A stretch of DNA of 64,000 bases from a virus. The stretch is from IMG/VR virus record IMGVR_UViG_3300027714_000011, positions 14,554 to 78,553 of that record; one strand, 5' to 3'. The first letter of the stretch is position 1. The number at the start of each line of letters is the position of its first letter. Shown one piece after another: positions 1 to 64,000 of the stretch. Position numbers and translations under genes: made by a program. The notes below the pieces were generated by a model, which saw only the letters and a program-made list of their open reading frames with translations, made no database searches and was not told where the DNA came from.

Positions 1-2501
1 AAACTAGTAAGGGCACATCACATTCAACAGTGACTGTATATACAACAACATGGCAAACTAATCACGGTACTTCTAGAGGCACGGCGCATTCAACAACAAC
101 TAAATGGAATACTAGTCAGTCAACAAGTAGAACTACTACAACGTCTTATACTACTTATTATAACACAACTAGGGGAACTTCTAGGGGAACTAGCAAAGCT
201 ACTACAACTACATGGTCAACGAGTAGAGGTACATCACATTCAACTACTACAGCGTATACAACTACGTTTAATACTAGTAGAGCAACAACTACTGCATGGA
301 CTACGTCATGGACTACTACTTTTGGAACTAGTAGAGGTACACAACATGCAACAACAACTACGTGGACAACAACATGGTCAACGAGTAGAGCTACAACAAC
401 TTCATATACAACTACATTTAACACTAGTAGAGGAACTAATAGAGGAACTAGTAAATCTACTACAACTACATGGCAAACCAGTAGAGGTACATCACATTCA
501 ACTCAGACAACATATAATACTAGTTGGAACACAACTAGGGCTACAACAACGTCATATAATACATCGTGGACTACTACGTTTGCAACGACACATTCAACAT
601 CTAGAGCCACTACTACGACGTGGGCAACGAGTAGAGGTACATCGCATTCAACTACTACAGCGTATACAACTACGTTTAATACTAGTAAAGCAACAACAAC
701 TACATGGACTACTTCATGGACAACCACTTATGGAACTAGTAGAGGTACGCAACACGCAACAACAACTGCGTGGACAACAACATGGTCAACGAGTAAATCT
801 ACAACAACTGCTTATACTACTTATTATAATACAACTAGAGGAACTAGTAGAGGAACTAGTAAATCTACTACAACCACATGGGGAACTAGTAAAGGTACAT
901 CACATTCAACAGTCACAGTGTATAATACTAGTTGGAATACATCTAGAAACACGACGACTTCATGGACTACTTCATGGACAACTACGTTTGCAACGACCCA
1001 TTCAACATCTAGAGCCACTACTACAACGTGGAACACCACTAGGGCTACAACGACTTCGTGGACTACTTATTATAATACCAGTAGAGGAACTAATAGAGGA
1101 ACTAGTAAATCTACTACTACGACATGGCAAACTAGTCACGGTACATCACGTTCAACAACGACTACGTATAATACTAGTTGGAACACTAGTAAAGCAACAA
1201 CGACTTCATGGACAACTTCATGGACAACTACGTTTGCAACGACCCATTCGACATCTAAAGCCACTACTACGACGTGGCAAACTAGTCGCGGTACATCACG
1301 TTCAACAACAACTACGTATAATACTGCTTGGAATACATCTAAAAACACGACCACTACATTTAATACAACAGTTTATACCGTATTCGCAACGAGTAGAGGT
1401 ACATCAAAGTCAACGACTACCAAATATGGTACATCAAAGTCAACGACTACCACATTTGGTACATCACATTCAACAACGACTGCATGGGTTGCTTCTAGAG
1501 GTACATCTAAGTCTACGACGACACAGTGGAGTACTGCTTGGAATACATCTAAGTCTACAACGACTAGGTATAACACTAGTAAATCAACGACTACTGTATG
1601 GGCTACTTCTTGGGCGACGTCTAAGTCAACTACGACTACTTGGTTGACATCTAGGTCTACGACCACTACGTTTAATACTAGTAAATCAACGACTACTACG
1701 TTTAACACTAGTAAATCAACGACTACATCATGGTCGTATAATGTTGGTACATCTAGAACGACACTTAAACATTATTCTAAAACAACACTTAAGACGTATA
1801 ATAGATCAACATATATTGATCGAAGTACAGTATATAATACTAGTTGGACACAATCCTCAGCAATCAACACGGCATGGAGTACTAGTTATTATATAAACAC
1901 AAAATGGACAACAGGTAGAAGCACAGTATCAGAGGAAATAGAGTGTATAGTAGAAGGCTCATTAGTGCATATTTCAACAACACAACAAGTTAAAGTTGAA
2001 ACATTGCAACCAGGTGATCCTATTTTAACATTAGATGGAACGTTCAATCTCGATGATGAGGATTTATTATTTGCATTAAAAGAAGACCAACTTTCCGATA
2101 TAAAATCAAATGATGATTATATATCAGCAATCATGGTTTCTCAAGTTACAGGCGTATGCGATATAAACAACGGTTTATTAAAAACAACACTCAATCACAT
2201 TCATATTGTAAAAAGAACTGTTCCAGATTCAGAAATTAAAAAATGGATTGCAATAGAAGGTTATCAACTAGTGGTTGGTGATATTTTATGGCACATCACT
2301 AATGGAGAAATTCCTATAACATCAGTAGCAGTAGACGAAACAAACATATATACTGTATATAAACTAGACGTTGAACCAAATGATGTCTTTTATGCTAACG
2401 GTATTTTAACGCATAACAGGAAATGTGATCCGGAGGAATATTGCAACCGCCGCAATATATGTTACGATCGATCAAAATGTTTGGACGATGGACAGTTTTA
2501 A
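1..2501 (+). CDS. 5'-truncated Thr/Ser-rich repeat (fibre-like) protein with C-terminal Hint domain and 27-aa Cys-rich tail
   Basis: Frame is open from nt 3 (TSKGTSHSTV...), so the GTG at 30 is not the true start. Repeats of xTx[RKHQ] and xTx[WYF]. Hint motifs C-IVEGSLV, TLNH and NGILTHN. Confidence 0.9.
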   Translation, partial: TSKGTSHSTVTVYTTTWQTNHGTSRGTAHSTTTKWNTSQSTSRTTTTSYTTYYNTTRGTSRGTSKATTTTWSTSRGTSHSTTTAYTTTFNTSRATTTAWTTSWTTTFGTSRGTQHATTTTWTTTWSTSRATTTSYTTTFNTSRGTNRGTSKSTTTTWQTSRGTSHSTQTTYNTSWNTTRATTTSYNTSWTTTFATTHSTSRATTTTWATSRGTSHSTTTAYTTTFNTSKATTTTWTTSWTTTYGTSRGTQHATTTAWTTTWSTSKSTTTAYTTYYNTTRGTSRGTSKSTTTTWGTSKGTSHSTVTVYNTSWNTSRNTTTSWTTSWTTTFATTHSTSRATTTTWNTTRATTTSWTTYYNTSRGTNRGTSKSTTTTWQTSHGTSRSTTTTYNTSWNTSKATTTSWTTSWTTTFATTHSTSKATTTTWQTSRGTSRSTTTTYNTAWNTSKNTTTTFNTTVYTVFATSRGTSKSTTTKYGTSKSTTTTFGTSHSTTTAWVASRGTSKSTTTQWSTAWNTSKSTTTRYNTSKSTTTVWATSWATSKSTTTTWLTSRSTTTTFNTSKSTTTTFNTSKSTTTSWSYNVGTSRTTLKHYSKTTLKTYNRSTYIDRSTVYNTSWTQSSAINTAWSTSYYINTKWTTGRSTVSEEIECIVEGSLVHISTTQQVKVETLQPGDPILTLDGTFNLDDEDLLFALKEDQLSDIKSNDDYISAIMVSQVTGVCDINNGLLKTTLNHIHIVKRTVPDSEIKKWIAIEGYQLVVGDILWHITNGEIPITSVAVDETNIYTVYKLDVEPNDVFYANGILTHNRKCDPEEYCNRRNICYDRSKCLDDGQF
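216..1031 (+). repeat. Two diverged copies of a 408-nt (136-aa) higher-order repeat in ORF1
   Basis: Blocks starting STSRGTSHSTTTAYTTTF (216) and ATSRGTSHSTTTAYTTTF (624) repeat the same 8-block pattern. Confidence 0.8.
1944..2417 (+). other. Hint (bacterial intein-like) autoprocessing domain
   Basis: Cys1 (E|CIVEGSLVHI), block-B TxxH (KTTLNH), C-terminal VYKLDVEPNDVFYANGILTHN. The +1 residue is Arg, not C/S/T. Confidence 0.9.
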
Positions 2502-2540
2502 ATAAAAGAAAAAGAAAAAGAAAAAGACTTAAATAATTAG

Positions 2541-5500
2541 ATGGCATCATACACTACATATTGGAGCGCTTCGAGAAGTGAAATAAGATACAGGAATACC
2601 TATCAAAATACTGCGATAGATCAAACTTATAGTAGGTCTACTTCCCATACTACAAGGGTCTATTACAACACGTCATGGACTGCTAACGCAACAACGTCAT
2701 GGACTGCTAACGTGACCACCGAATGGGCCACTTCATATTCAGCATCTAAGTCTACAACGACTACGTTTAATACATCTAAGTCTACAACGACTACGTTTAA
2801 TACATCTAAGTCTACAACGACTACGTTTAATACATCTAAGGCCACCACTACAGCATGGACTGCAAGTAGAAATACTAGTAGAGCTACTACAACTACATAT
2901 ATTACATCTAAGGCAACCACTACGGCGTGGACTGCAAAACGTAATACAACTAGAGCAACGACGACTTCATGGACTACTTCTTGGAATACTTCTAAGGCTA
3001 CAACGACTTCGTACAGCACATCTAGAAACACAACGACTTCGTATAATACAACGCATTCAACTACTACATCATATAGCACTTATTGGAATACAGCTAGAAA
3101 TACAACTAGGAGTACTAGTAAAAGTACCTCAACTACATGGTCAACTAGTCAAAGCACATCGCATTCAACGACTACGTCGTATACGACTTATTATAATACT
3201 AGTAAATCAACGACTACGACATATAACACAACATATAACACAACTAGGGGAACTAATAGAGGAACTAGTAAAACTACCACAACGACATGGTCAACTAGCC
3301 AATCTACTAAGCGTTCAACGACTACATCATATACGACTTATTATAATACTAGTAGAGCAACAACTACTGCATGGACTACGTCATGGACAACTACCTTTCA
3401 AACTAACAAAGGTACATCGCGTTCAACAACGACTACGTTTAACACTAGTAGATCAACGACTACGACATATAACACAACATATAACACAACTAGAGGTACA
3501 TCTAGGGGAACTAGTAAATCTACAGGGACTACTTGGTCAACTAGCCAATCTACTAAGCATTCAACGACTACTTCGTATACGACTTATTATAATACTAGTA
3601 GAGCAACAACTACTTCATGGACTACTTCATGGGTAACTACTTTTGGAACTAGTAGAGGTACATCACATTCGACAACAACTACGTTTAATACTAACCAATC
3701 AACTAGTAAATCTACAACTACGAAGTATACTACGTATTACAATACGAGTAGAGGTACATCTAGAGGAACTAGTAAATCTACAACAACCACGTGGGCAACA
3801 AGTAGAGGTACATCACATTCAACGACTACGTCTTATACAACTACGTTTAATACTAGTAAATCAACGACTACGACGTTTAATACAACATATAACACGGCTA
3901 GAGGTACATCTAGGGGAACTAGTAAATCTACCACAACTACATGGTCAACTAGTCAAAGTACTAAGCATTCAACGACTACTTCGTATACGACTTATTATAA
4001 CACTAGTAAAGCAACGACGACTTCATGGACTACATCATGGACAACTACTTTTGGAACTAGTAGAGGTACATCGCACTCGACAACGACTACGTTTAATACT
4101 AACCAATCAACTAGTAAATCTACAACTACGAAGTATACTACGTATTACAATACGAGTAGAGGTACATCTAGAGGAACTAGTAAATCTACCACAACTACAT
4201 GGGCAACTAGTAGAGGTACATCACATTCAACGACTACATCTTATACAACTACGTTTAATACTAACCAATCAACAACGACTGCATGGACTACTTCATGGGT
4301 AACTACTTTTGGAACTAGTAGAGGTACATCACATTCGACAACAACTACGTTTAATACTTCATGGCAAACAAGTAGAGCTACAACAACATCTTATACTACT
4401 TCATGGACTACATATTACAATACAAGTAGAAGTACAGAACATTCAACTACTACATCGTATACGACTAAGTTTAACACTAGTAACTCAACGACGACTTCAT
4501 GGACTACTTCATGGGTAACTACTTTTGGAACTAGTAGAGGTACATCGCATGCAACGACTACTGTATGGACTACTTCATGGCAAACGAGTAGAGCTACAAC
4601 AACAGCTTATACTACTTCATGGACTACATATTACAATACAAGTAGAAGTACAGAACATTCGACAACAACCGTATTCAATACAACATGGTCAACAAGTAAA
4701 GCTACAACAACAGCTTATACTACTTCATGGACTACGACATTTAATACTAATCAAAGTACAAAACATTCAACTACTACGTCTTATACAACTACGTTTAATA
4801 CTAGTAAATCAACGACTACGTCATATACTACTTCGTGGACCACGACGTTTAATACGAATAAATCTACTAGTCATTCAACGACTACTGTGTATACAACTAG
4901 TTGGAATACATCTAGGGGAACAAGTAGAGGTACGGAGCATTCAACAACAACCACATTTAACACTAATCAGTCTACTGAACATAGTACAACTACAACATAC
5001 TCGACATCGTGGACGACTTCATGGAACACTAGTCAATCCACTAGTCATTCAACGACACATAGTACAACTACTATTTGGGGTACTTCTTTAGGAACAAGTA
5101 GATCTACTAATCACTCAACGACAACAACATGGACAACATATTGGAATACTAGTCGAGTTGAGTCGCGTAACACTACGACTACGTGGGTGACACAAGATCA
5201 AACAAGTCAGTCAACTGTAACTGAGTGGACAACTTCATGGACAACTTCATGGAACACAAGTCAATCTACGGTAACTACGTGGACAACTTCATGGACAACT
5301 TCATGGAAAACAAGTCAATCTACTAATAAAAGTACAATGACTACGTGGAACACAACTAAGTCTACTGCGACAGTGTATACAACATCTAGAGTTACTTCTA
5401 CAACGTGGAATACAAGTCAGTCAACTAATAAAAATACGACAACAACATGGTCGACTTTATATGATGTGACTACTACTTGGACCACGTCTTGGAACACCAC

Positions 5501-5669
5501 TACTACATGGAATACAACTAAAGCTACCACTACCAATTGGACAACGAGTTATTCAACTGAATACGAAGCAAGAAGAACATGGTATGGAAAAGTCCACACA
5601 GGACATGAGATATTCCCTTACGCTACAGTACAACAGTGGAGAGTCAATTCTTATTTAGGTCGACCATAG
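2541..5669 (+). CDS. 1042-aa Thr/Ser-rich repeat protein, antiparallel partner of ORF1
   Basis: Same repeat grammar as ORF1 with mirrored block order and basic/aromatic counts swapped. Short unique C-terminal tail. Confidence 0.9.
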   Translation: MASYTTYWSASRSEIRYRNTYQNTAIDQTYSRSTSHTTRVYYNTSWTANATTSWTANVTTEWATSYSASKSTTTTFNTSKSTTTTFNTSKSTTTTFNTSKATTTAWTASRNTSRATTTTYITSKATTTAWTAKRNTTRATTTSWTTSWNTSKATTTSYSTSRNTTTSYNTTHSTTTSYSTYWNTARNTTRSTSKSTSTTWSTSQSTSHSTTTSYTTYYNTSKSTTTTYNTTYNTTRGTNRGTSKTTTTTWSTSQSTKRSTTTSYTTYYNTSRATTTAWTTSWTTTFQTNKGTSRSTTTTFNTSRSTTTTYNTTYNTTRGTSRGTSKSTGTTWSTSQSTKHSTTTSYTTYYNTSRATTTSWTTSWVTTFGTSRGTSHSTTTTFNTNQSTSKSTTTKYTTYYNTSRGTSRGTSKSTTTTWATSRGTSHSTTTSYTTTFNTSKSTTTTFNTTYNTARGTSRGTSKSTTTTWSTSQSTKHSTTTSYTTYYNTSKATTTSWTTSWTTTFGTSRGTSHSTTTTFNTNQSTSKSTTTKYTTYYNTSRGTSRGTSKSTTTTWATSRGTSHSTTTSYTTTFNTNQSTTTAWTTSWVTTFGTSRGTSHSTTTTFNTSWQTSRATTTSYTTSWTTYYNTSRSTEHSTTTSYTTKFNTSNSTTTSWTTSWVTTFGTSRGTSHATTTVWTTSWQTSRATTTAYTTSWTTYYNTSRSTEHSTTTVFNTTWSTSKATTTAYTTSWTTTFNTNQSTKHSTTTSYTTTFNTSKSTTTSYTTSWTTTFNTNKSTSHSTTTVYTTSWNTSRGTSRGTEHSTTTTFNTNQSTEHSTTTTYSTSWTTSWNTSQSTSHSTTHSTTTIWGTSLGTSRSTNHSTTTTWTTYWNTSRVESRNTTTTWVTQDQTSQSTVTEWTTSWTTSWNTSQSTVTTWTTSWTTSWKTSQSTNKSTMTTWNTTKSTATVYTTSRVTSTTWNTSQSTNKNTTTTWSTLYDVTTTWTTSWNTTTTWNTTKATTTNWTTSYSTEYEARRTWYGKVHTGHEIFPYATVQQWRVNSYLGRP
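3441..4256 (+). repeat. Two near-identical copies of a 408-nt (136-aa) higher-order repeat in ORF2
   Basis: The sequence ctaaccaatcaactagtaaatctacaactacgaagtatactacgtattac... occurs at 3691 and 4099, 408 nt apart. Confidence 0.85.
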
Positions 5670-5743: not shown

Positions 5744-6655
5744 ATGGAAATGTTTAACAAAAAGGTTCTTAAGGAAAGAATAGGACCTCTTAAGAAAAAC
5801 GATAAACTTAACGCACTCGAACAAGTAGAGAGATACGTACTTAGAAAATGTAAAGAACTTGGATTAGAACATAGTTATGATGTAATAGCAGAAGAGATGC
5901 CATACTTTAAAACTATGGGATATACTGAATATGCTACGTGTTTTATGTTACAGCCCTTAAATTTAAAAATGAGAACTGCTCAGATCAATGATGCATATCA
6001 CGATAACGTGGATAATGTATCAGATTGGGCTGGTTATTTTAGAGCAAATGTTCAAGATAAGGTTGCTAATAAATATCAATCTCGTAAAGAGAATTTTAGT
6101 CAATGGCCTGCAAAACCAGTTTTAGTAGTTTTACCAGGATCTAATAAACTTAAATCAAACTGTTGTTTAAATAAATTAATAAAGGTTGCTGAAGAAAACA
6201 AAGGTAACATTTATTTTAAACCGCATCCTATCACAACACATGCTGTAATAGGCGAAATTAAAGATTTATTTGGTGAAGAATCTATTTTACCAAGAGACAT
6301 TGATCTTTATCACTTCATGCAACAAGCCGAAACAGTATACACTACACATATTAGCGAAAGTGCATTATATTCTTTAGTGTTGGGAAAAACAGTAGAACCA
6401 ATAGATGTTTGGAACAATGTACATCAAGGTTCATTTTATACTGTAAATTCTGCACTATTTGATAATGCTAGCAATGTTGATGAATGGATAAATAGAGTTT
6501 TTTCTAGTCCTAAATCAGGTATTATTAATCCAGCATTGGATACGGATTGGAAAGATAAAGTAGATAAGTACATGACATATATGTACGAAAAAAGAGAATT
6601 CTATAAAGGATGGTTTTTGGACCTTCCACCTAAAGTAAAACGTAACAAAGATTAA
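5744..6655 (+). CDS. GT-B glycosyltransferase, capsule biosynthesis KpsC/KpsS-like
   Basis: IYFKPHP and DLYHFMQQAETVYTTHISESALYSLVLGKTV resemble the HP and v.T.nS..g.EAl..GKpV motifs. Confidence 0.6.
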   Translation: MEMFNKKVLKERIGPLKKNDKLNALEQVERYVLRKCKELGLEHSYDVIAEEMPYFKTMGYTEYATCFMLQPLNLKMRTAQINDAYHDNVDNVSDWAGYFRANVQDKVANKYQSRKENFSQWPAKPVLVVLPGSNKLKSNCCLNKLIKVAEENKGNIYFKPHPITTHAVIGEIKDLFGEESILPRDIDLYHFMQQAETVYTTHISESALYSLVLGKTVEPIDVWNNVHQGSFYTVNSALFDNASNVDEWINRVFSSPKSGIINPALDTDWKDKVDKYMTYMYEKREFYKGWFLDLPPKVKRNKD

Positions 6656-12875: not shown

Positions 12876-13508
12876 ATGGATCAATATAAAATACTATTAA
12901 AACACAGTCACACTGGTGAGCAATCTATTATAGAGATTGGATTAGACGAAGCAGGCCGAGGAGCACTTGCAGGTCCAGTTACTGTCGCAGCATGTATTAT
13001 GCCATTTGGATTTCAACATGAAATCATTAAAGACTCCAAACTATTAAGTGAACCACAACGAGTAGATGCAAGGCGCATGGTATTAGAGAACGCGTTGGCG
13101 TGGTCTGTAGTACACATTCCAGTCGAAGAGATAGAATCTACTAATATTTTAAAAGCTACGCTGAATGGCATGAGGGTGTGCTTGGACAACGTTAAAAAAG
13201 ATCATGATTTTGATTTTATTTTAGTAGACGGAGATCAATTTCATGGTTACGATGGAATTCCTTTTGAAACAGTAGTCGGAGGAGACAACATATACACCAA
13301 TATTGCAGCAGCTTCTATTCTAGCCAAAACAGAAAGAGATCTTCTTATGAAAGGATTGAGTAGTGATTTTCCAGAATACGGATGGGGTTCTAATAAAGGA
13401 TATGGCACTAAACAACATAGAGACGCCATCGTAAGCGAAGGAGCAACTGATCATCATAGAAATTCATTCATTAGTCACATGTTGACTACAACCAATACTT
13501 TATTTTGA
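12876..13508 (+). CDS. rnhB: Ribonuclease HII
   Basis: GLDEAGRGALAGPV, DSKLL, AAASILAK, NKGYGT. Confidence 0.93.
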   Translation: MDQYKILLKHSHTGEQSIIEIGLDEAGRGALAGPVTVAACIMPFGFQHEIIKDSKLLSEPQRVDARRMVLENALAWSVVHIPVEEIESTNILKATLNGMRVCLDNVKKDHDFDFILVDGDQFHGYDGIPFETVVGGDNIYTNIAAASILAKTERDLLMKGLSSDFPEYGWGSNKGYGTKQHRDAIVSEGATDHHRNSFISHMLTTTNTLF

Positions 13509-13849
13509 GATCACTTTTAACAGGAATGCTATTATTCTTTGCTGGACAAACCATGATTTGGTTTCAAACTAATGGCCAATTTATATCTCCATGGGCTAAG
13601 AAAAACACTATTATAATTTCAGTACTCGGAGGAACTATAATTAGTTATATGTTTATTAAGGCTACTGCGTATATTGCGGGATATTATGACGGGGCACTCT
13701 GGCCTGGAAGATTCATAGGGTTTTCTTTGGGAATTACATCTTTTGCATTTCTAACATGGTATTTTATGGGAGAGGGTATAAACAGTAAAACTATGGTTTC
13801 GTTAGGTCTGGCAGTTTTATTAATATGTGTACAATTATTTTGGAAATGA
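13505..13849 (+). CDS. small four-helix membrane protein (DMT/SMR-like)
   Basis: Four hydrophobic segments; TTG start overlapping the rnhB stop. Confidence 0.6.
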   Translation: MRSLLTGMLLFFAGQTMIWFQTNGQFISPWAKKNTIIISVLGGTIISYMFIKATAYIAGYYDGALWPGRFIGFSLGITSFAFLTWYFMGEGINSKTMVSLGLAVLLICVQLFWK

Positions 13850-14100
13850 AAAAATCAAAATTACCTTGGATAGAAAAAGATAAACCGACAAATGTTGTTG
13901 TTTATAGAAAGCAAAAAACTAGCAGCACTTATTACATGATAATAACGAACGTACATGTTGACGTCATCAATAACCTAAGAGCAACTAAACCAATCATCGA
14001 TCATAAGTATGAAATTGTTGAATTAGGTGTAGGTTTTGCTTTTATTGAAGAGTGGTCTAATAAGTATAAAATTAAAAATCCTAAAATAATAACAAAATAA
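13846..14100 (+). CDS. hypothetical protein
   Basis: Likely start is the ATG at 13846 (ATGA overlap with the previous stop). Confidence 0.65.
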   Translation: MKKSKLPWIEKDKPTNVVVYRKQKTSSTYYMIITNVHVDVINNLRATKPIIDHKYEIVELGVGFAFIEEWSNKYKIKNPKIITK

Positions 14101-14111
14101 AGGCACATATA

Positions 14112-14152
14112 TTTTTTTATGTCAATTATTTGTGGTATATTAGTAGTATAAT
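14112..14152 (+). promoter_or_regulatory. Putative early promoter TTTTTTTATGTCAA-N-TATATTAGTAGTATAAT
   Basis: Conserved at 14112, 14619, 15392 and 16073. Confidence 0.65.
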
Positions 14153-14161
14153 AACAAACAC

Positions 14162-14386
14162 ATGATAAGAAATAAACTACACAAACATCAGGATAATCCA
14201 ATCGTTATAGATTTGACAGGGCCAGAAGGCAATGCATTTATGTTGATGTCATATGCAAAATCGTTTAGTAAAGATCTTGGAAAGAATTATGAAGATTTGC
14301 AAAAACAAATGACTAGCGGCGATTATGAAAATTTAATTAAAGTATTCGATGATGCATTCGGGGACTTTGTAATACTAGAAAGATAA
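14162..14386 (+). CDS. conserved phage hypothetical protein
   Basis: IDLTGPEGNAF...MTSGDYENL, a motif I recall from many phages. Confidence 0.7.
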   Translation: MIRNKLHKHQDNPIVIDLTGPEGNAFMLMSYAKSFSKDLGKNYEDLQKQMTSGDYENLIKVFDDAFGDFVILER

Positions 14387-14388
14387 CA

Positions 14389-14607
14389 ATGGAAAATAGA
14401 TCAATTAAAATTATAGGAACATGGTTCGGTGCAGTACTAGCACTAGTATTCATAGGAGTGTTCATGGCTTTACCAACAATGTGGCTGTGGAATAGTTGTT
14501 TAGTGCCATCATTAGACGGTGTACGTGTAATAGATTTTTGGCAAGCTTTAGGAATTAATATATTGTCAAGTATTCTATTTAAAACATCCAATGTTAAACA
14601 AAAATAA
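14389..14607 (+). CDS. small membrane protein
   Basis: MWLWN...IDFWQALGI with hydrophobic helices. Confidence 0.7.
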   Translation: MENRSIKIIGTWFGAVLALVFIGVFMALPTMWLWNSCLVPSLDGVRVIDFWQALGINILSSILFKTSNVKQK

Positions 14608-14618
14608 ATCACACCAGA

Positions 14619-14659
14619 TTTTTTTATGTCAAATAAAAGTGGTATATTAGTAGTATAAT
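14619..14659 (+). promoter_or_regulatory. Putative early promoter
   Basis: tttttttatgtcaa...ggTATATTAGTAGTATAAT. Confidence 0.65.
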
Positions 14660-14670
14660 AAAAACGTAAT

Positions 14671-15123
14671 ATGGAAAAGAAAATAATGTATTTGGATATG
14701 GACGGTGTTTTAGTTGACATCTTTAAAGCATGTGCAGATAAGTACGGAAAAGATTCAGTATCTAGAATTGGTGATTTACTAGATGAAGATCCTGAATTAT
14801 TTTATGAAGCAGAACCAATTCCTGGTGCTATTGAAGCTTTTAACAAATTAGTGGATGTATACGATGTATATTTATTGACTAGCGCACCATGGGAAAGTTT
14901 GGGTTCTGTCAAGGCTAAAAGATTATGGGTTAGAAAATACTTAGGTGCACCTGCATATAAAAGAATTATCACTAGCCACCATAAAAATTTAATGATTGGA
15001 GATTACTTAATTGATGATAGAACGGCTAACGGCGCCGGAGAATTCAAAGGAGAGTTGATCCAATTTGGTACAGAAAAATACTTAAATTGGGATATTGTAC
15101 TTGATTACTTAAAAATTAAATAA
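14671..15123 (+). CDS. 5'(3')-deoxyribonucleotidase (NT5C-type HAD)
   Basis: LDMDGVLVD, LTSAPW, K..WV, GDYLIDD. Confidence 0.85.
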   Translation: MEKKIMYLDMDGVLVDIFKACADKYGKDSVSRIGDLLDEDPELFYEAEPIPGAIEAFNKLVDVYDVYLLTSAPWESLGSVKAKRLWVRKYLGAPAYKRIITSHHKNLMIGDYLIDDRTANGAGEFKGELIQFGTEKYLNWDIVLDYLKIK

Positions 15124-15124
15124 T

Positions 15125-15355
15125 ATGGATTTTAAAGAAAACACAGACGCATTATTCGACATACATAGAAAAACTAAAAGAGTTATAAGTTCATGTGTAA
15201 TACCATCTCAATTAGAATCTGCTAGAAATTATGTAGAAAACTTTAGAAGGTGGATGTCATGTATTGTGTGTGAAGATAAAACACAAGAGGTTCTATTAAA
15301 AGGAATAATAGATGACGTTGAATTGGAGTTAAGACTCAAATATCTAAATATTTAA
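15125..15355 (+). CDS. hypothetical protein
   Basis: 76-aa ORF. Confidence 0.65.
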   Translation: MDFKENTDALFDIHRKTKRVISSCVIPSQLESARNYVENFRRWMSCIVCEDKTQEVLLKGIIDDVELELRLKYLNI

Positions 15356-15382
15356 TTGTTCGTAACTTTTTAGAAAATAATT

Positions 15383-15413
15383 AAGCCCACATTTTTTTAT
15401 GTGGGTTTTTTTT
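15383..15413 (+). terminator. Intrinsic terminator overlapping a promoter copy
   Basis: aagcccacat...atgtgggtt hairpin followed by a T-run. Confidence 0.6.
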
Positions 15414-15415
15414 GT

Positions 15416-15432
15416 TATATTAGTAGTATAAT
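15416..15432 (+). promoter_or_regulatory. Putative early promoter
   Basis: TATATTAGTAGTATAAT. Confidence 0.65.
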
Positions 15433-15448
15433 AAAAACAGTTAAAGAT

Positions 15449-15847
15449 ATGAAACAATTTAATGCAAATGAAGTAAAGTGCAACGGAACAGGTGGTTCAG
15501 GCTATCAAGCCGTTCTTAAACACAAAGACGAAATTCAAGGAATCTGTCAAGAAGTTAGAGATCTTATAGGTATTGAAAAACTATGGGAACTAGCAACAAC
15601 AGAACCTAATGTTGATTATCATCAAGGAACTAGATTTAATTCTGTAGAAGATAATACATATCGACTTATTAGTGGAATTGCAAATCATATCTCAGAATAT
15701 ATTCATACCAGTGAACTAATCGAGATGCACGTAGGATCTATTCTATCGATGTTAACAATTGAAGATAAAGTAACACTTGTTGCCGATGCTTGTAGAGATT
15801 GTGCAAGCGCAGATCACTGGTATACATTCGAAAAAGATTGGGGATAA
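15449..15847 (+). CDS. hypothetical protein
   Basis: Likely start MKQFNANE at 15449, downstream of the promoter (the track start at 15401 lies inside the promoter/terminator). Confidence 0.7.
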   Translation: MKQFNANEVKCNGTGGSGYQAVLKHKDEIQGICQEVRDLIGIEKLWELATTEPNVDYHQGTRFNSVEDNTYRLISGIANHISEYIHTSELIEMHVGSILSMLTIEDKVTLVADACRDCASADHWYTFEKDWG

Positions 15848-15848
15848 G

Positions 15849-16061
15849 ATGACTATTGAAGAAAGATACGATCGCATAGATTCTACATCATATGTAGTGT
15901 TTCCAGATAATAAGACAATATACGCTATTGAAAATATCGAAGTATTTGAAAACACCATTCTCGTAGAAACAGATACTGGTTGGTTATTCAATGACATGGA
16001 TGTGTTTACCGTTGAAGAAATGGTCGATGTTGAAAATAAATTAGAAGAATTAATGAAATAA
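15849..16061 (+). CDS. hypothetical protein
   Basis: Likely start MTIEERY, one nt after the previous stop. Confidence 0.65.
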   Translation: MTIEERYDRIDSTSYVVFPDNKTIYAIENIEVFENTILVETDTGWLFNDMDVFTVEEMVDVENKLEELMK

Positions 16062-16072
16062 ACGCATAAATA

Positions 16073-16113
16073 TTTTTTTATGTTAAATAAAAGTTGTATA
16101 TTAGTAGTATAAT
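16073..16113 (+). promoter_or_regulatory. Putative early promoter
   Basis: tttttttatgttaa...tgTATATTAGTAGTATAAT. Confidence 0.65.
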
Positions 16114-16128
16114 TAAAAACTTAAAGTC

Positions 16129-16263
16129 ATGTATAAAATTAAAACAAAATGGATCAAATTTATGTTTAAGTATGCTAAAACAACATTAGATTTGAATGGT
16201 ACATACATAAAAGAAGAATGGAATAAAGCTGGGTTTAAAGACTCAATAATTGAAAAAGTATAA
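16129..16263 (+). CDS. small hypothetical protein (44 aa, not in ORF track)
   Basis: MYKIKTKWIKFMFKYAK..., directly after the promoter. Confidence 0.55.
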   Translation: MYKIKTKWIKFMFKYAKTTLDLNGTYIKEEWNKAGFKDSIIEKV

Positions 16264-16299
16264 TTAAAGAATTACAAGAAAACTTTGAACTATAAGACT

Positions 16300-16506
16300 A
16301 TGAAAATTACAAAACAATCACAACTGTCGGGTAAAACAAATACCATGGAATTAGATATAACTAATGAACAATTAGTGAAATATGATAATGGTGAACTAAT
16401 ACAGAACGTATTTCCAAATATGAATGCAGATGAAAGAGAGTTTCTAAAATCGGGTATTACGTCTAAAGAATGGTCAGATGTTTTCGGTAATGGAGAAGAT
16501 GAATAA
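16300..16506 (+). CDS. conserved phage hypothetical protein
   Basis: LIQNVFPNMNADEREFLKSGIT..EW. ATG at 16300 preferred over the TTG at 16285. Confidence 0.7.
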   Translation: MKITKQSQLSGKTNTMELDITNEQLVKYDNGELIQNVFPNMNADEREFLKSGITSKEWSDVFGNGEDE

Positions 16507-16521
16507 TTTAAAAAAATAAAA

Positions 16522-16986
16522 ATGAGTAAAAAATCAGTAATTTTTGATCTAGATGGAACTCTAGCAATAATTGATAAAAGACGAGTATTGGCAACTAAGC
16601 CGGATGGTAAAATTAACTGGGACATTTTCTTTGATCCTAAAAACATTAGCTTAGATGTACCAAATCACTCAGTAATTAAAATGGCCCAATTGTTAAAAGC
16701 AGATGGACATAGAATTGTTATTTTTAGTGGTAGAAGTAAAGCGACTAAAGATACTACTAGAGATTGGTTAGATAAATTTGATGTGCCATTTGATGTACTT
16801 AAAATGAGGCCAACTGGTAACGAATTTGGATTTATGCCAGATGACAAGTTAAAACAAGGATGGTTAGACGATTTGTTCCCTGATAAAGCAGATATCTTAT
16901 GCGTATTTGATGACAGAGATAAAGTCGTTAAGATGTGGAGAGATAATGGATTGACTTGTATGCAAGTTGCACCGGGTAATTTTTAA
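16522..16986 (+). CDS. HAD phosphatase, polynucleotide kinase 3'-phosphatase-like
   Basis: FDLDGTLA, FSGR, MRP, VFDDRDKVVKMWR. Confidence 0.85.
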   Translation: MSKKSVIFDLDGTLAIIDKRRVLATKPDGKINWDIFFDPKNISLDVPNHSVIKMAQLLKADGHRIVIFSGRSKATKDTTRDWLDKFDVPFDVLKMRPTGNEFGFMPDDKLKQGWLDDLFPDKADILCVFDDRDKVVKMWRDNGLTCMQVAPGNF

Positions 16987-16996
16987 AATATAAATT

Positions 16997-17416
16997 ATGA
17001 AACACTTAAAAATAATAAAAGCAATTAATAAAGCTGAATTTAATCTAGAGGAACTAGAACAAATCAGTTTAGCAATAGCTAACATAAATCATCAAGAGAG
17101 CGCAGAACTAGAAGTTACATCGTATGATGGTAGAACTTATGAAACAGATGATTATGCATTCGAAGCTACTCGTATTTTACAAGAAGATGGTACACCGTAT
17201 GATGATCAGTGCTCGATTGAAGTCACTGATAAACGTACTAAACCATGGAAAGAAGAATACTTAGATAATGCACATTGGATGATTGGCGTTTTAGAAAATG
17301 ATAGCGAATCAATGGTTGAAGCAAATACTATGTTTAATAAACATGGCATTGCAGAATTTAGGGCTGTTGTCAGAGACCTTATTAACGTGGAATGGTTACC
17401 ACAACAAAAAACATAA
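16997..17416 (+). CDS. hypothetical protein
   Basis: 139-aa ORF. Confidence 0.7.
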   Translation: MKHLKIIKAINKAEFNLEELEQISLAIANINHQESAELEVTSYDGRTYETDDYAFEATRILQEDGTPYDDQCSIEVTDKRTKPWKEEYLDNAHWMIGVLENDSESMVEANTMFNKHGIAEFRAVVRDLINVEWLPQQKT

Positions 17417-62846: not shown

Positions 62847-64000
62847 ATGGCAGCAAACGATTATACAAGAACGGTCAATATTACACCACTAAGCACTGCT
62901 TATTCGTGGGATACACCTCCATCATGGATAACTATCACACAAGTTGGCAGTTCTAATGATTGGACAATCACATTAGCATCTAATTCTGGGGCAGCAAGAA
63001 ACGCAACGCTTACAGTTAGACATGCCAATACAACAACCATTGATACTATTACGGTTAGTCAATTAGGAGGAGTGGTTGCAAATCCTACTGCAACACCGGT
63101 CCCACCGACGCCAACACCTACTTCAGGAAGTGGAGCAGGACCGACTGCAACACCAGTCCAACCGACTGCAACACCACAACCAACACCAACGTTTACATTC
63201 GCAACTAATACAACATCTAATAATAGATTTATATTTACTACTGCGATACAAACCGCTGATGTGTATTATACTATTCAAGGTGATGGTGAATCAAGTCCAG
63301 TTACTCCTTCAAATTTTTCAACTTCTGGAATTAGTGGAACAAATGTATCTGGACCTACTGTAACAAACAACAACGATGTGTTTACTGGAGTTTATAGGTT
63401 TACAAAAACTTTTTCGCCAATTAATACCATGAATATTAATTGTACAGTTACTGCACCACCTAACACGTTTGATACATGGTATTGTACTCTTGAAACAGGT
63501 ATTCCAAACAACCCAACTGCGACGCCATTACCAACACTGTTTCCAACGGCGACACCATACGTTTCCGGAGGAGGAGGAAGCGGAGGCGGATGTCACGTAT
63601 CTGGAGAATTAATTACATTAGCTGATGGTCAAACTAAATTGGTTGAAGACATAATAATAGGTGATATCTTGTTGTCTATTGATTTTGAAGGACTCAACAT
63701 AAGCGGAGAATACAATGATTGGAAGAAAACTGAGGAGACATTAGTATCTGAATATACTAGTACTGTTGTTACTAACGTTACTATTTTGGACTTCTTTAGA
63801 TATTTTAATATAAATGCTGGCTTACTAAAAATTACAGAGGAGCATCCTGTTCTAATAAAAGATAATTTAGGTGATATTTACTTTAAACAAGTAAAAGACA
63901 TTGTTGTAAACGATAGTTTATTAAATGAAAATAATGTATGGATAAAAATAGATTCTGTAGAATTAGTAACAGTACCTGAGAAGTTTACGACATATGCACT
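62847..64000 (+). CDS. 3'-truncated BACON + PT linker + duplicated beta domain + Hint protein (missed by ORF track)
   Basis: Open from ATG 62847 to the window end. SWITIT..NSGAARNATLTV..TITVSQ (BACON-like); GGGGSGGG|CHVSGELITLADG (Cys1 at 63591); LLKITEEHP. Confidence 0.85.
   Translation, partial: MAANDYTRTVNITPLSTAYSWDTPPSWITITQVGSSNDWTITLASNSGAARNATLTVRHANTTTIDTITVSQLGGVVANPTATPVPPTPTPTSGSGAGPTATPVQPTATPQPTPTFTFATNTTSNNRFIFTTAIQTADVYYTIQGDGESSPVTPSNFSTSGISGTNVSGPTVTNNNDVFTGVYRFTKTFSPINTMNINCTVTAPPNTFDTWYCTLETGIPNNPTATPLPTLFPTATPYVSGGGGSGGGCHVSGELITLADGQTKLVEDIIIGDILLSIDFEGLNISGEYNDWKKTEETLVSEYTSTVVTNVTILDFFRYFNINAGLLKITEEHPVLIKDNLGDIYFKQVKDIVVNDSLLNENNVWIKIDSVELVTVPEKFTTYA

What the first reader, a model, noticed from the sequence alone, without database searches (positions are those of the whole stretch)
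1731..2750. The pairing register brings the N-terminus of protein 2 exactly to the Hint cleavage site of protein 1
Seen in sequence: the i+j=638 register continues through the irregular 70 residues beyond the repeats (R576-W62, K584-W54, R592-W46, Y602-H36, W606-R32, W616-Q22, Y620-R18, W626-R12, R630-W8). It ends with I637 opposite Met1 of ORF2. E638|C639 is the Hint N-terminal scissile bond. The Hint domain has Cys1, TxxH and a terminal HN, but +1 is Arg. Established knowledge: such BIL/Hedgehog-type Hints cannot splice canonically; they form a thioester that an external nucleophile resolves. Inference: the zipper presents the ORF2 N-terminus (Ala2 amine or Ser3 after Met removal) to that thioester, ligating two gene products in trans into one roughly 2000-aa hairpin. 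Alternatives: the Hint is a self-removing cap or attaches a small molecule at the tip, or the pair descends from one gene with the Hint at the turn.
Basis: partly seen in the sequence, partly recalled or inferred. Interest (0 to 1): 0.88.

Follow-up and report, generated by a model that had tools for sequence, protein, structure and literature searches.

The report
Self-excising Hint cap at fibre tip
One chain of a strange two-chain, residue-by-residue complementary phage fibre ends in a real intein-like (Hint) self-cutting domain placed where the partner chain begins. Comparison with about 70 related loci suggests the domain removes itself, perhaps re-attaching its own small cysteine-rich tail, rather than welding the two chains together.

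Summary
ORF1 starts 1,135 nt upstream of the window and is 1,211 aa long. Its arm and ORF2 (1,042 aa) oppose aromatic and basic residues in one antiparallel register: 185 opposed pairs against 4 same-class pairs, next best register 111, with no slip in twelve 80-residue windows. That register puts ORF2 Met1 opposite the residue before Glu|Cys1 of a 158-aa Hint. The Hint has Cys1, TLNH and a terminal HN, then Arg-Lys. Its closest structures are BIL2 of the Tetrahymena BUBL1 locus and the C. thermocellum BIL.

Trans-ligation is neither shown nor excluded.
- For it: a single-ORF hairpin without a Hint (L046) is nested among Hint-bearing pairs, and BIL2 conjugates to amines in trans.
- Against it: the arms end flush in relatives that have no active Hint.
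- Against it: sister lineages carry a Peptidase_S74 self-cleaving chaperone there, or a separate catalytically dead Hint fused to a methyltransferase-like domain.
- Against it: the same Hint subfamily caps many unrelated proteins, including a second one in this phage, and keeps HN plus Lys at +1/+2.
- Against it: most paired relatives keep a Cys-rich flank behind the Hint, and many ORF2s start Met-Pro.

Best reading: a type-A BIL-like self-excising cap. This scan has reported similar Hint caps on other DNA, once on a related two-chain fibre.

The parts
1..1943 (+). ORF1 arm. This is the window part of a 1,026-residue Thr/Ser-rich strand. The gene starts 1,135 nt upstream of the window, at genome 13419.
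   Evidence: antiparallel complementarity to ORF2
1731..1943 (+). Irregular last 71 residues of the ORF1 arm, ending ...TVSEEIE. This is the distal tip of the arm.
1941..1946 (+).
   Evidence: Cys1 is invariant in all 8 aligned Hints.
1944..2417 (+). Hint domain of type-A BIL kind, 158 aa
   Evidence: AF2 model pLDDT 82. Foldseek top hits are BIL2 of Tetrahymena BUBL1 (E 3e-8) and C. thermocellum BIL 2lwy, then inteins and Hedgehog. Pfam Hint_2 and Intein_splicing match only below their cut-offs.
2187..2198 (+). Block B motif Thr-Leu-Asn-His
   Evidence: The His is invariant in the alignment.
2412..2417 (+). Terminal His-Asn (block G)
   Evidence: Asn is invariant; His is replaced by Tyr in one lineage.
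2418..2501 (+). 27-aa C-flank beginning Arg-Lys, with four Cys, plus the stop codon. It is the short form of a conserved Cys-rich flank.
   Evidence: No Pfam family. Modelled at low confidence.
2502..2540 (+). 39-nt A-rich spacer, (AAAAAG)-like repeats, ending in a TAG directly before the ORF2 ATG
2541..5669 (+). ORF2, 1,042 aa, the antiparallel partner strand
2541..2750 (+). ORF2 N-terminal 70 residues (MASYTTYW...). They face the ORF1 tip.
62847..63998 (+). Second Hint-tailed protein of the same phage, cut by the record end. A Gly-rich linker precedes Cys1 at nt 63591.

Best explanation
Window 1944-2417 encodes an intact type-A BIL-like Hint domain. It is fused to the distal (C-terminal) end of the ORF1 arm of a two-chain, flush-ended antiparallel fibre.

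Inferred mechanism:
1. Cys1027 converts the Glu1026-Cys1027 peptide bond into a thioester.
2. Asn1184 cyclises and frees the 27-aa Arg-Lys-Cys-rich flank.
3. The Hint leaves the arm.
4. The acyl group goes either to water (plain self-cleavage) or to an amine of the domain's own flank, as proposed for type-A BILs. The amine could be the alpha-amine of Arg+1 or the epsilon-amine of the conserved Lys+2. In the second case the arm ends in a small Cys-rich tip.

Before it leaves, the domain may act as a transient cap or register-setting clamp at the open end of the hairpin. ORF2's N-terminus lies at the site because both arms end flush in every class of this fibre family, not because it is the obligatory acceptor.

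Shown: the Hint fold, the catalytic residues, the register and the comparative pattern. Inferred: every chemical step.
For: - Fold and residues. Cys1, TxxH and terminal Asn are invariant, and +1 is non-nucleophilic. The closest structures are BIL domains.
- Published behaviour. Type-A BILs have a C-terminal His-Asn and no +1 nucleophile. They mostly cleave, and they can splice through the free amine of the C-terminal fragment (PMC4031507; PMC7664689).
- Family pattern. Of 151 distinct C-termini of this Hint subfamily, 129 have Lys at +1 or +2, only 7 have Cys/Ser/Thr at +1, 87 have flanks of 10 aa or less, and 21 end within two residues of the Asn. The domain sits at the extreme C-terminus of many unrelated proteins, often after a Gly linker.
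- A second such protein lies in this same phage.
- Sister lineages put other modules at the same place. Class II has a tip domain plus Peptidase_S74 (E 3.6e-5, above cut-off). Class III has a short Cys motif at the ORF1 end plus a separate gene for a methyltransferase-like domain fused to a Hint-like domain. That Hint-like domain has Cys1 replaced by Gly and has lost HN.
- Arms end flush in class III too.
- In the other classes ORF1 carries a directly encoded Cys-containing tip after the arm. In most class I lineages a conserved Cys-rich flank of about 40 aa lies behind the Hint. This fits a flank that is meant to end up on the arm.
Against: - No experiment or proteome was available, so cleavage, splicing and ligation cannot be told apart.
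- Several class I lineages have tiny flanks (KEL, KES, FKISP, KDDKKG), so re-attachment of a functional tip cannot be general.
- A fused single-chain hairpin (L046) is the closest relative of Hint-bearing pairs. This shows that a covalently closed turn is viable and arose, or was lost, recently.
- The offset between ORF2 Met1 and Cys1 is 0 to +3 in 12 of 23 lineages. That is tighter than strictly needed for flush ends.
- BIL2, the closest solved structure, does conjugate in trans.
- Pfam Hint models match only below their cut-offs.
Confidence: 0.6

Rival explanations
1. Trans-ligation. The zipper presents the ORF2 N-terminal amine (Ala2 after Met removal) to the Glu1026 thioester. The Hint is displaced, and the two gene products become one covalently closed hairpin of about 2,070 residues.
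For: - The register places Met1 opposite the residue before Glu1026. Ligation to Ala2 would leave a two-residue turn.
- The offset is 0 to +3 in 12 of 23 lineages and never beyond -11, which is within the 12-residue loop of the natural fused form.
- The fused single-ORF hairpin L046 is sister to Hint-bearing L042, with support 99/96.
- ORF1 and ORF2 are separated by -1 to 75 nt.
- BIL2 conjugates its N-flank to amines of other proteins (PMC8616854).
Against: - Flush ends also occur without an active Hint (class III).
- S74 (hydrolytic) or a dead Hint occupy the same spot in relatives.
- The same Hint subfamily caps many proteins without such a partner.
- The conserved terminal Asn and Lys +1/+2 point to a cis reaction.
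- Eleven of the 23 unambiguous class I lineages have ORF2 starting Met-Pro, which would leave a secondary amine.
- The -1 residue is usually Asp or Glu. From memory, this favours uncoupled N-cleavage in inteins; I did not verify it here.
Confidence: 0.12
2. Evolutionary relic. The pair descends from a single-chain hairpin gene in which an intein-like element sat at the turn. Loss of the +1 nucleophile and a stop codon split the gene. The Hint is now kept only because it must still remove itself. This is compatible with the best explanation as to present function.
For: - The fused form L046 lies inside a class I clade, and its DNA is 86-90% identical to L042 from ORF2 residue ~52 onward.
- In some lineages ORF1 and ORF2 are in the same frame, separated by one stop plus one codon (L089).
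Against: - No single ORF with a Hint between two arms was found among about 230 Hint hits.
- The Hint subfamily is typically terminal on unrelated proteins.
- The frame relation is not conserved (gaps of -1, 1, 3, 4 and 23-75 nt).
- The direction of the L046 change is unknown because the tree is unrooted.
Confidence: 0.1
3. Transfer to another nucleophile. The thioester is resolved by a small molecule (as cholesterol is in Hedgehog), by another virion protein, or by a host-surface group. The fibre tip would then carry an adduct or become covalently anchored.
For: - Hedgehog and BIL2 are precedents for Hint-mediated transfer.
- The tip of a fibre is a plausible place for a modification.
- Methyltransferase-like genes accompany the tip in classes II and III.
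Against: - There is no adduct-recognition region after the Hint. The terminal HN and a short flank are present instead.
- A Hint thioester is unlikely to survive until host contact.
- No methyltransferase homologue was found in the 78.5-kb record, which is only 27% complete.
Confidence: 0.06

Closest known systems
Type-A bacterial intein-like (BIL) domains, e.g. Clostridium thermocellum BIL (PDB 2LWY; Amitai 2003, Dassa 2004 and Aranko 2013 as cited in PMC4031507 and PMC7664689)
   Same: Hint fold, Cys1, block B TxxH, C-terminal His-Asn and no +1 Cys/Ser/Thr. Reported to cleave at both ends, and to splice through the amine of the freed C-fragment.
   Different: - Here the domain sits at the very end of a phage fibre chain, with only a 27-aa flank.
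- The subfamily keeps a Lys at +1/+2.
- Pfam Hint models do not reach their cut-offs.
- The activity is untested.
BIL2 of the Tetrahymena thermophila BUBL1 polyubiquitin-like locus (PDB 6Y75/6TMM; PMC8616854)
   Same: Best structural match (Foldseek E 3e-8). A BUBL-like protein (P0130) is also hit by the sequence profile. BIL2 is reported to join the C-terminus of its N-flank to a lysine amine, also on other proteins.
   Different: BIL2 lies between two ubiquitin-like domains in a eukaryote. Sequence identity is about 19%. No ubiquitin-like flank is present here, and the acceptor is unknown.
Hedgehog C-terminal autoprocessing (Hog) domain (PDB 1AT0)
   Same: A Hint at the C-terminus of a protein. 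It makes a thioester at a Cys and releases the N-terminal part.
   Different: Hedgehog has a sterol-recognition region and no terminal His-Asn. Here HN plus a short flank are conserved.
Peptidase_S74 intramolecular chaperone domain of endosialidases and phage tail fibres (PF13884)
   Same: A self-cleaving C-terminal module at the distal end of a phage fibre. It occupies exactly this position in class II relatives of this fibre. The transient fibre cap idea is discussed in PMC10579305.
   Different: Unrelated fold and chemistry: Ser-Lys hydrolysis, no thioester, no possible ligation. It is not present in the window.
Naturally split inteins (protein trans-splicing)
   Same: They join two separately encoded polypeptides through Hint chemistry.
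   Different: Split inteins divide the Hint between the two proteins and use a +1 nucleophile. Here the whole Hint is on ORF1, and ORF2 starts directly with the arm.

Membership tests
HINT superfamily (fold) | Hint beta-fold | tested here: met
   AF2 model pLDDT 82, pTM 0.76. Foldseek probability 1.00 to BIL, intein and Hedgehog structures, target-normalised TM up to 0.78.
HINT superfamily (Pfam models Hint_2, Intein_splicing) | Score above the Pfam gathering threshold | tested here: not met
   Hint_2 16.9 bits against a cut-off of 28.4. Intein_splicing 16 bits against 35.8. Only N- and C-terminal pieces match.
Type-A BIL domain | N-terminal Cys/Ser nucleophile and block B Thr-x-x-His | tested here: met
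   Cys1 and TLNH. Both are invariant or conservatively kept in 8 aligned members.
Type-A BIL domain | C-terminal His-Asn | tested here: met
   THN at window 2409-2417. Asn is invariant.
Type-A BIL domain | No Cys/Ser/Thr at +1 | tested here: met
   Arg at +1 in the window. Only 7 of 151 family members have Cys/Ser/Thr there.
Type-A BIL domain | Autocleavage and/or splicing activity | not testable with these tools
   Needs expression and mass spectrometry.
Canonical class 1 intein | +1 Cys/Ser/Thr nucleophile, and insertion inside a conserved host protein whose two halves are rejoined | tested here: not met
   +1 is Arg, and the C-flank is 27 aa followed by a stop. No ORF with arms on both sides of a Hint was found.
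Hedgehog/Hog domain | Adduct (sterol) recognition region following the Hint, and no need for a terminal Asn | tested here: not met
   The domain ends in HN with a short Cys-rich flank.
Split intein pair | Hint divided between the two partner proteins | tested here: not met
   All Hint blocks are on ORF1, and ORF2 begins with arm sequence.
Peptidase_S74 intramolecular chaperone | PF13884 match with the Ser-Asp-x-x-x-Lys cleavage motif at the C-terminus of the fibre | tested here: not met
   Absent from the window's ORF1. Present in class II relatives such as L070.

The most novel reading that the evidence does not exclude
The Hint is a built-in, single-use protein ligase. It staples the C-terminus of one roughly 1,000-residue strand to the N-terminus of its separately encoded antiparallel partner, closing a roughly 2,070-residue beta-hairpin fibre. 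Its end product would equal that of the naturally fused gene found in a close relative.
Probability: 0.12. Interest if true: 0.9.

Novelty: new variant of a known kind. Interest (0 to 1): 0.66.

Why it matters
The Hint is a further member of a large family of intein-like caps on phage fibre and surface proteins. I found no paper describing that family. Here it sits at the open end of a fibre whose two chains are complementary residue by residue over about 1,000 positions.

The family offers natural experiments at that one position:
- an active Hint,
- a hydrolytic S74 chaperone,
- a dead Hint fused to a methyltransferase-like domain,
- a direct gene fusion.

This makes testable how a low-complexity two-chain hairpin sets its register, and whether its tip needs to be closed. 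If ligation or flank re-attachment were shown, it would be a natural, ATP-independent protein-stapling step in virion assembly and a possible tool for protein engineering.

Tried and rejected
- Megablast and tblastn of the region and the Hint against deposited phage genomes: no match. The downstream anchor gene hits only Caulobacter phage Cr30 at 26% identity.
- PHROGs for the Hint, ORF2, the second Hint protein and the class II/III middle genes: no family.
- Pfam for the whole ORFs: nothing meaningful.
- Pfam for the Cys-rich flanks: nothing.
- The word-indexed homologue search with the Hint region gave only two weak hits.
- The profile search was diluted, because the long N-terminal domain of P0003/P0004 was taken into the profile. 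I re-extracted the Hint hits with a Hint-only HMM.
- tblastn of the class II/III methyltransferase-like genes against the 78.5-kb record: only the two Hints match and no methyltransferase is found. The record is 27% complete.
- Idea that the ORF2 N-terminus overshoots and folds back on itself in some class III loci: rejected. The apparent overshoot comes from a globular domain inserted in ORF2.
- Idea of stop-codon read-through making the Hint internal: the frame relation between ORF1 and ORF2 is not conserved.
- DNA-level inverted repeat as the cause of the complementarity: excluded by the codon logic, since the reverse complement of a Trp codon is a Pro codon. This is inference from the sequence.
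- Literature searches for a Hint on phage fibres and for such Thr-rich paired fibres found no description.


Full report
**Where the finding lies.** The window is bases 14554-78553 of a 78.5-kb IMG/VR virus record that is estimated 27% complete. ORF1 is open at the window's 5' end. In the full record it runs from 13419 to 17054 and is 1,211 aa long, starting MKNIGFSK. ORF2 (window 2541-5669, 1,042 aa) starts at an ATG directly preceded by a TAG, 39 nt after the ORF1 stop. Upstream lie collagen-like and other fibre-type genes. All genes in the window are on one strand.

**The observation.** Each listed pair is present.
- Over the whole 1,026-residue pre-Hint arm and ORF2, the antiparallel register i+j=1026 gives 185 aromatic/basic opposed pairs and 4 same-class pairs.
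- The next register gives 111, and parallel registers give at most 58.
- Against the other even registers this is z=7.7.
- Most unpaired Trp face Gln.
- In twelve separate 80-residue windows the same register is best or tied, so there is not a single indel between the chains.
- In the last 70 residues alone the signal is weak (9 opposed/1 same, against 8/2 for the runner-up). The tip register rests on the global one.

This register puts ORF2 Met1 opposite Ile1025, one residue before Glu1026|Cys1027.

**The Hint.** Window 1944-2417 encodes 158 residues with Cys1, TLNH, and ANGILTHN at the end. It is followed by Arg-Lys and a 27-aa flank with four Cys. Pfam gives only sub-threshold matches, Hint_2 at the N-terminus and Intein_splicing at the C-terminus. 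An AlphaFold model from an 8-sequence alignment has pLDDT 82, with the flank below 50. Foldseek's best solved matches are:
- BIL2 of the Tetrahymena BUBL1 locus (E 3e-8);
- the C. thermocellum BIL domain;
- then inteins and Hedgehog.

In BFVD it matches many uncultured-phage proteins named only as Hint-domain, FN3 or PASTA proteins. By the criteria in PMC4031507 it has the marks of a type-A BIL: C-terminal His-Asn, no +1 nucleophile, and reactions at both ends. For type-A BILs cleavage dominates, and splicing is proposed to go through the free amine of the released C-fragment.

**The family.** I used the conserved 303-aa gene downstream of ORF2 as an anchor, and then Hint alignments. This gave about 70 related loci. 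Every complete pair shows one unique antiparallel register, for example L010 185/9, L054 91/0 and L113 196/5. Arm lengths co-vary from about 170 to 1,425 residues. The two-chain antiparallel pairing is therefore a conserved property. The distal end, where the ORF1 C-terminus meets the ORF2 N-terminus, comes in distinct forms.
- **Class I** (the window and many others): ORF1 ends in an active Hint, and ORF2 follows within -1 to 75 nt.
- **Class II:** ORF1 carries a tip domain of about 95 aa plus a Peptidase_S74 intramolecular chaperone with the Ser-Asp-Arg-x-x-Lys motif (E 3.6e-5, above the Pfam cut-off). A 188-aa methyltransferase-like gene lies before ORF2.
- **Class III:** ORF1 stops 4-14 residues past the partner of Met1, in a Gly run plus Cys-x-Arg-Gly-Cys-Ile. 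A separate gene of about 350 aa lies between the two ORFs. It encodes a methyltransferase-like domain fused to a Hint-like domain, about 40% identical to the window's Hint over 93 residues. That Hint-like domain has Cys1 replaced by Gly and has lost the terminal His-Asn.
- **One locus** has an 80-aa Cys-rich tip instead.
- **L046** is a single 1,297-aa ORF with the ORF1-type N-terminus and the ORF2-type C-terminus. It has 97 self-complementary pairs and none of the same class, a 12-residue loop (ATGGDAKAKAAE) and no Hint. A single-sequence AlphaFold model of its middle gives two long strands with the turn at that loop, at low confidence (pLDDT 62).

On the anchor-gene tree L046 is sister to the Hint-bearing L042 (support 99/96), inside a clade with the Hint-bearing L043 (100/99). 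Class II is one clade. Classes I and III are interleaved. L042 and L046 are 86-90% identical in DNA from ORF2 residue ~52 onward.

**How exact the fit is elsewhere.** In 23 unambiguous, de-duplicated class I pairs the offset between the partner of Met1 and the last pre-Hint residue is as follows:

| Offset | Lineages | Note |
|---|---|---|
| 0 | 8 | |
| +1 to +3 | 4 | |
| -1 | 1 | |
| -6 or -7 | 3 | |
| -9 | 6 | one lineage |
| -11 | 1 | a short-armed form with a Gly linker |

However, class III arms are equally flush without any active Hint. The coincidence follows from two full-length paired arms with a module appended to one of them.

**What the Hint subfamily does in general.** A profile search and a Hint-only HMM show this subfamily at the extreme C-terminus of many unrelated proteins, often after a Gly linker. 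A second protein of this same phage is one of them. Among 151 distinct C-termini:
- 129 have Lys at +1 or +2;
- only 7 have Cys/Ser/Thr at +1;
- 87 have flanks of 10 residues or fewer;
- 21 end within two residues of the Asn.

The terminal Asn is kept throughout. A domain that only had to cut at its N-terminus would not need Asn and Lys. This points to a conserved reaction that involves its own flank. Within the paired fibres, the main class I lineage keeps three tip elements:
- ORF1 ending Ser-Thr-Asp-Asp-Gly-h-x-Asp/Glu before Cys1;
- ORF2 starting Met-Ala-h-Tyr-Ile/Thr-Thr-Ser-Trp;
- a Cys-rich flank of about 40 aa behind the Hint.

The window has a short version of that flank. In the other classes ORF1 carries a directly encoded Cys-containing tip after the arm, so the flank may be the tip that a type-A BIL splice would place on the arm. 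Other class I lineages have only KEL, KES, FKISP or KDDKKG, so this cannot be general.

**Weighing the readings.**
- For trans-ligation: the geometry (Ala2 would close a two-residue turn), the fused relative, the tight gene spacing, and the BIL2 precedent of conjugation to amines of other proteins (PMC8616854).
- Against trans-ligation: flush ends without a Hint, replacement by a hydrolytic S74 module or a dead Hint, the generic use of the subfamily, conservation of Asn and Lys, Met-Pro starts in about half of the class I ORF2s, and Asp/Glu at -1.

The Asp/Glu point rests on my recollection that this favours uncoupled N-cleavage in inteins, which I did not verify. I put self-excision without ORF2 ligation at about 0.6, split roughly between plain hydrolysis and re-attachment of the flank. 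Trans-ligation gets about 0.12, and the remainder goes to other acceptors or a retained domain. A non-catalytic Hint-like protein is kept in class III. This suggests the fold also has a binding role at the tip, such as a transient cap or a clamp that sets the register of two low-complexity strands. That is inference; compare the cap idea for fibre chaperones in PMC10579305.

**Novelty.** I found no paper on Hint caps of phage fibres or on this paired fibre. Earlier agents of this scan reported the same kind of cap on other DNA, including one on a related two-chain fibre, and reached similar conclusions. New here are:
- the class II and class III replacements;
- the fused hairpin nested among Hint-bearing pairs;
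- the offset distribution;
- the conserved Cys-rich flank.

Noticed in passing
window 62847-63998 (Cys1 at 63591): A second protein of the same phage ends in the same Hint subfamily after a Pro/Thr-rich region and a Gly linker (GGGGSGGG|CHVSGELI). It is cut by the end of the record.
   Followed up: partly
L046:3550-7443: A single 1,297-aa ORF forms a self-complementary hairpin (97 pairs, none of the same class) with a 12-residue loop and no Hint. Its neighbouring gene is nearly identical to that of a Hint-bearing relative (L042).
   Followed up: yes
L044:4233-5279, L035:4572-5669 and other class III loci: The gene between ORF1 and ORF2 encodes a SAM-methyltransferase-like domain fused to a catalytically dead Hint-like domain (Cys1 to Gly, HN lost). 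ORF1 there ends in Gly-run-Cys-x-Arg-Gly-Cys-Ile. The substrate and role are unknown.
   Followed up: partly
L070:5352-5867 and 5872-6435 (class II loci): ORF1 carries a tip domain of about 95 aa plus a Peptidase_S74 self-cleaving chaperone. A 188-aa methyltransferase-like gene follows, before ORF2. An S74 module suggests that the ORF1 tip may be trimeric.
   Followed up: partly
L022, L025, L031 (ORF2 residues ~100-250): ORF2 carries an inserted non-repeat, probably globular, domain about 100 residues from its N-terminus. The insertion shifts the global register.
   Followed up: partly
window 2502-2540: The ORF1-ORF2 spacer is an A-rich run of (AAAAAG)-like repeats with no obvious Shine-Dalgarno sequence.
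   Followed up: no
L089:7335-7343 and relatives L147, L151-L154: In the KEL-flank lineage ORF1 and ORF2 are in the same frame, separated by one stop and one codon. The penultimate His of the Hint is Tyr there.
   Followed up: partly
P0130 (profile hit): An 810-aa protein with three BIL domains alternating with ubiquitin-like units (BUBL type) is hit by the phage Hint profile at about 1e-29. This links the subfamily by sequence to the BUBL BILs.
   Followed up: no
genome 3312-6407 and 10400-13390 (upstream of the window): Two proteins of about 1,000 aa whose alternative reading frames suggest collagen-like Gly-x-y repeats, plus other fibre-like genes. Together with the paired fibre they form a fibre gene cluster.
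   Followed up: no
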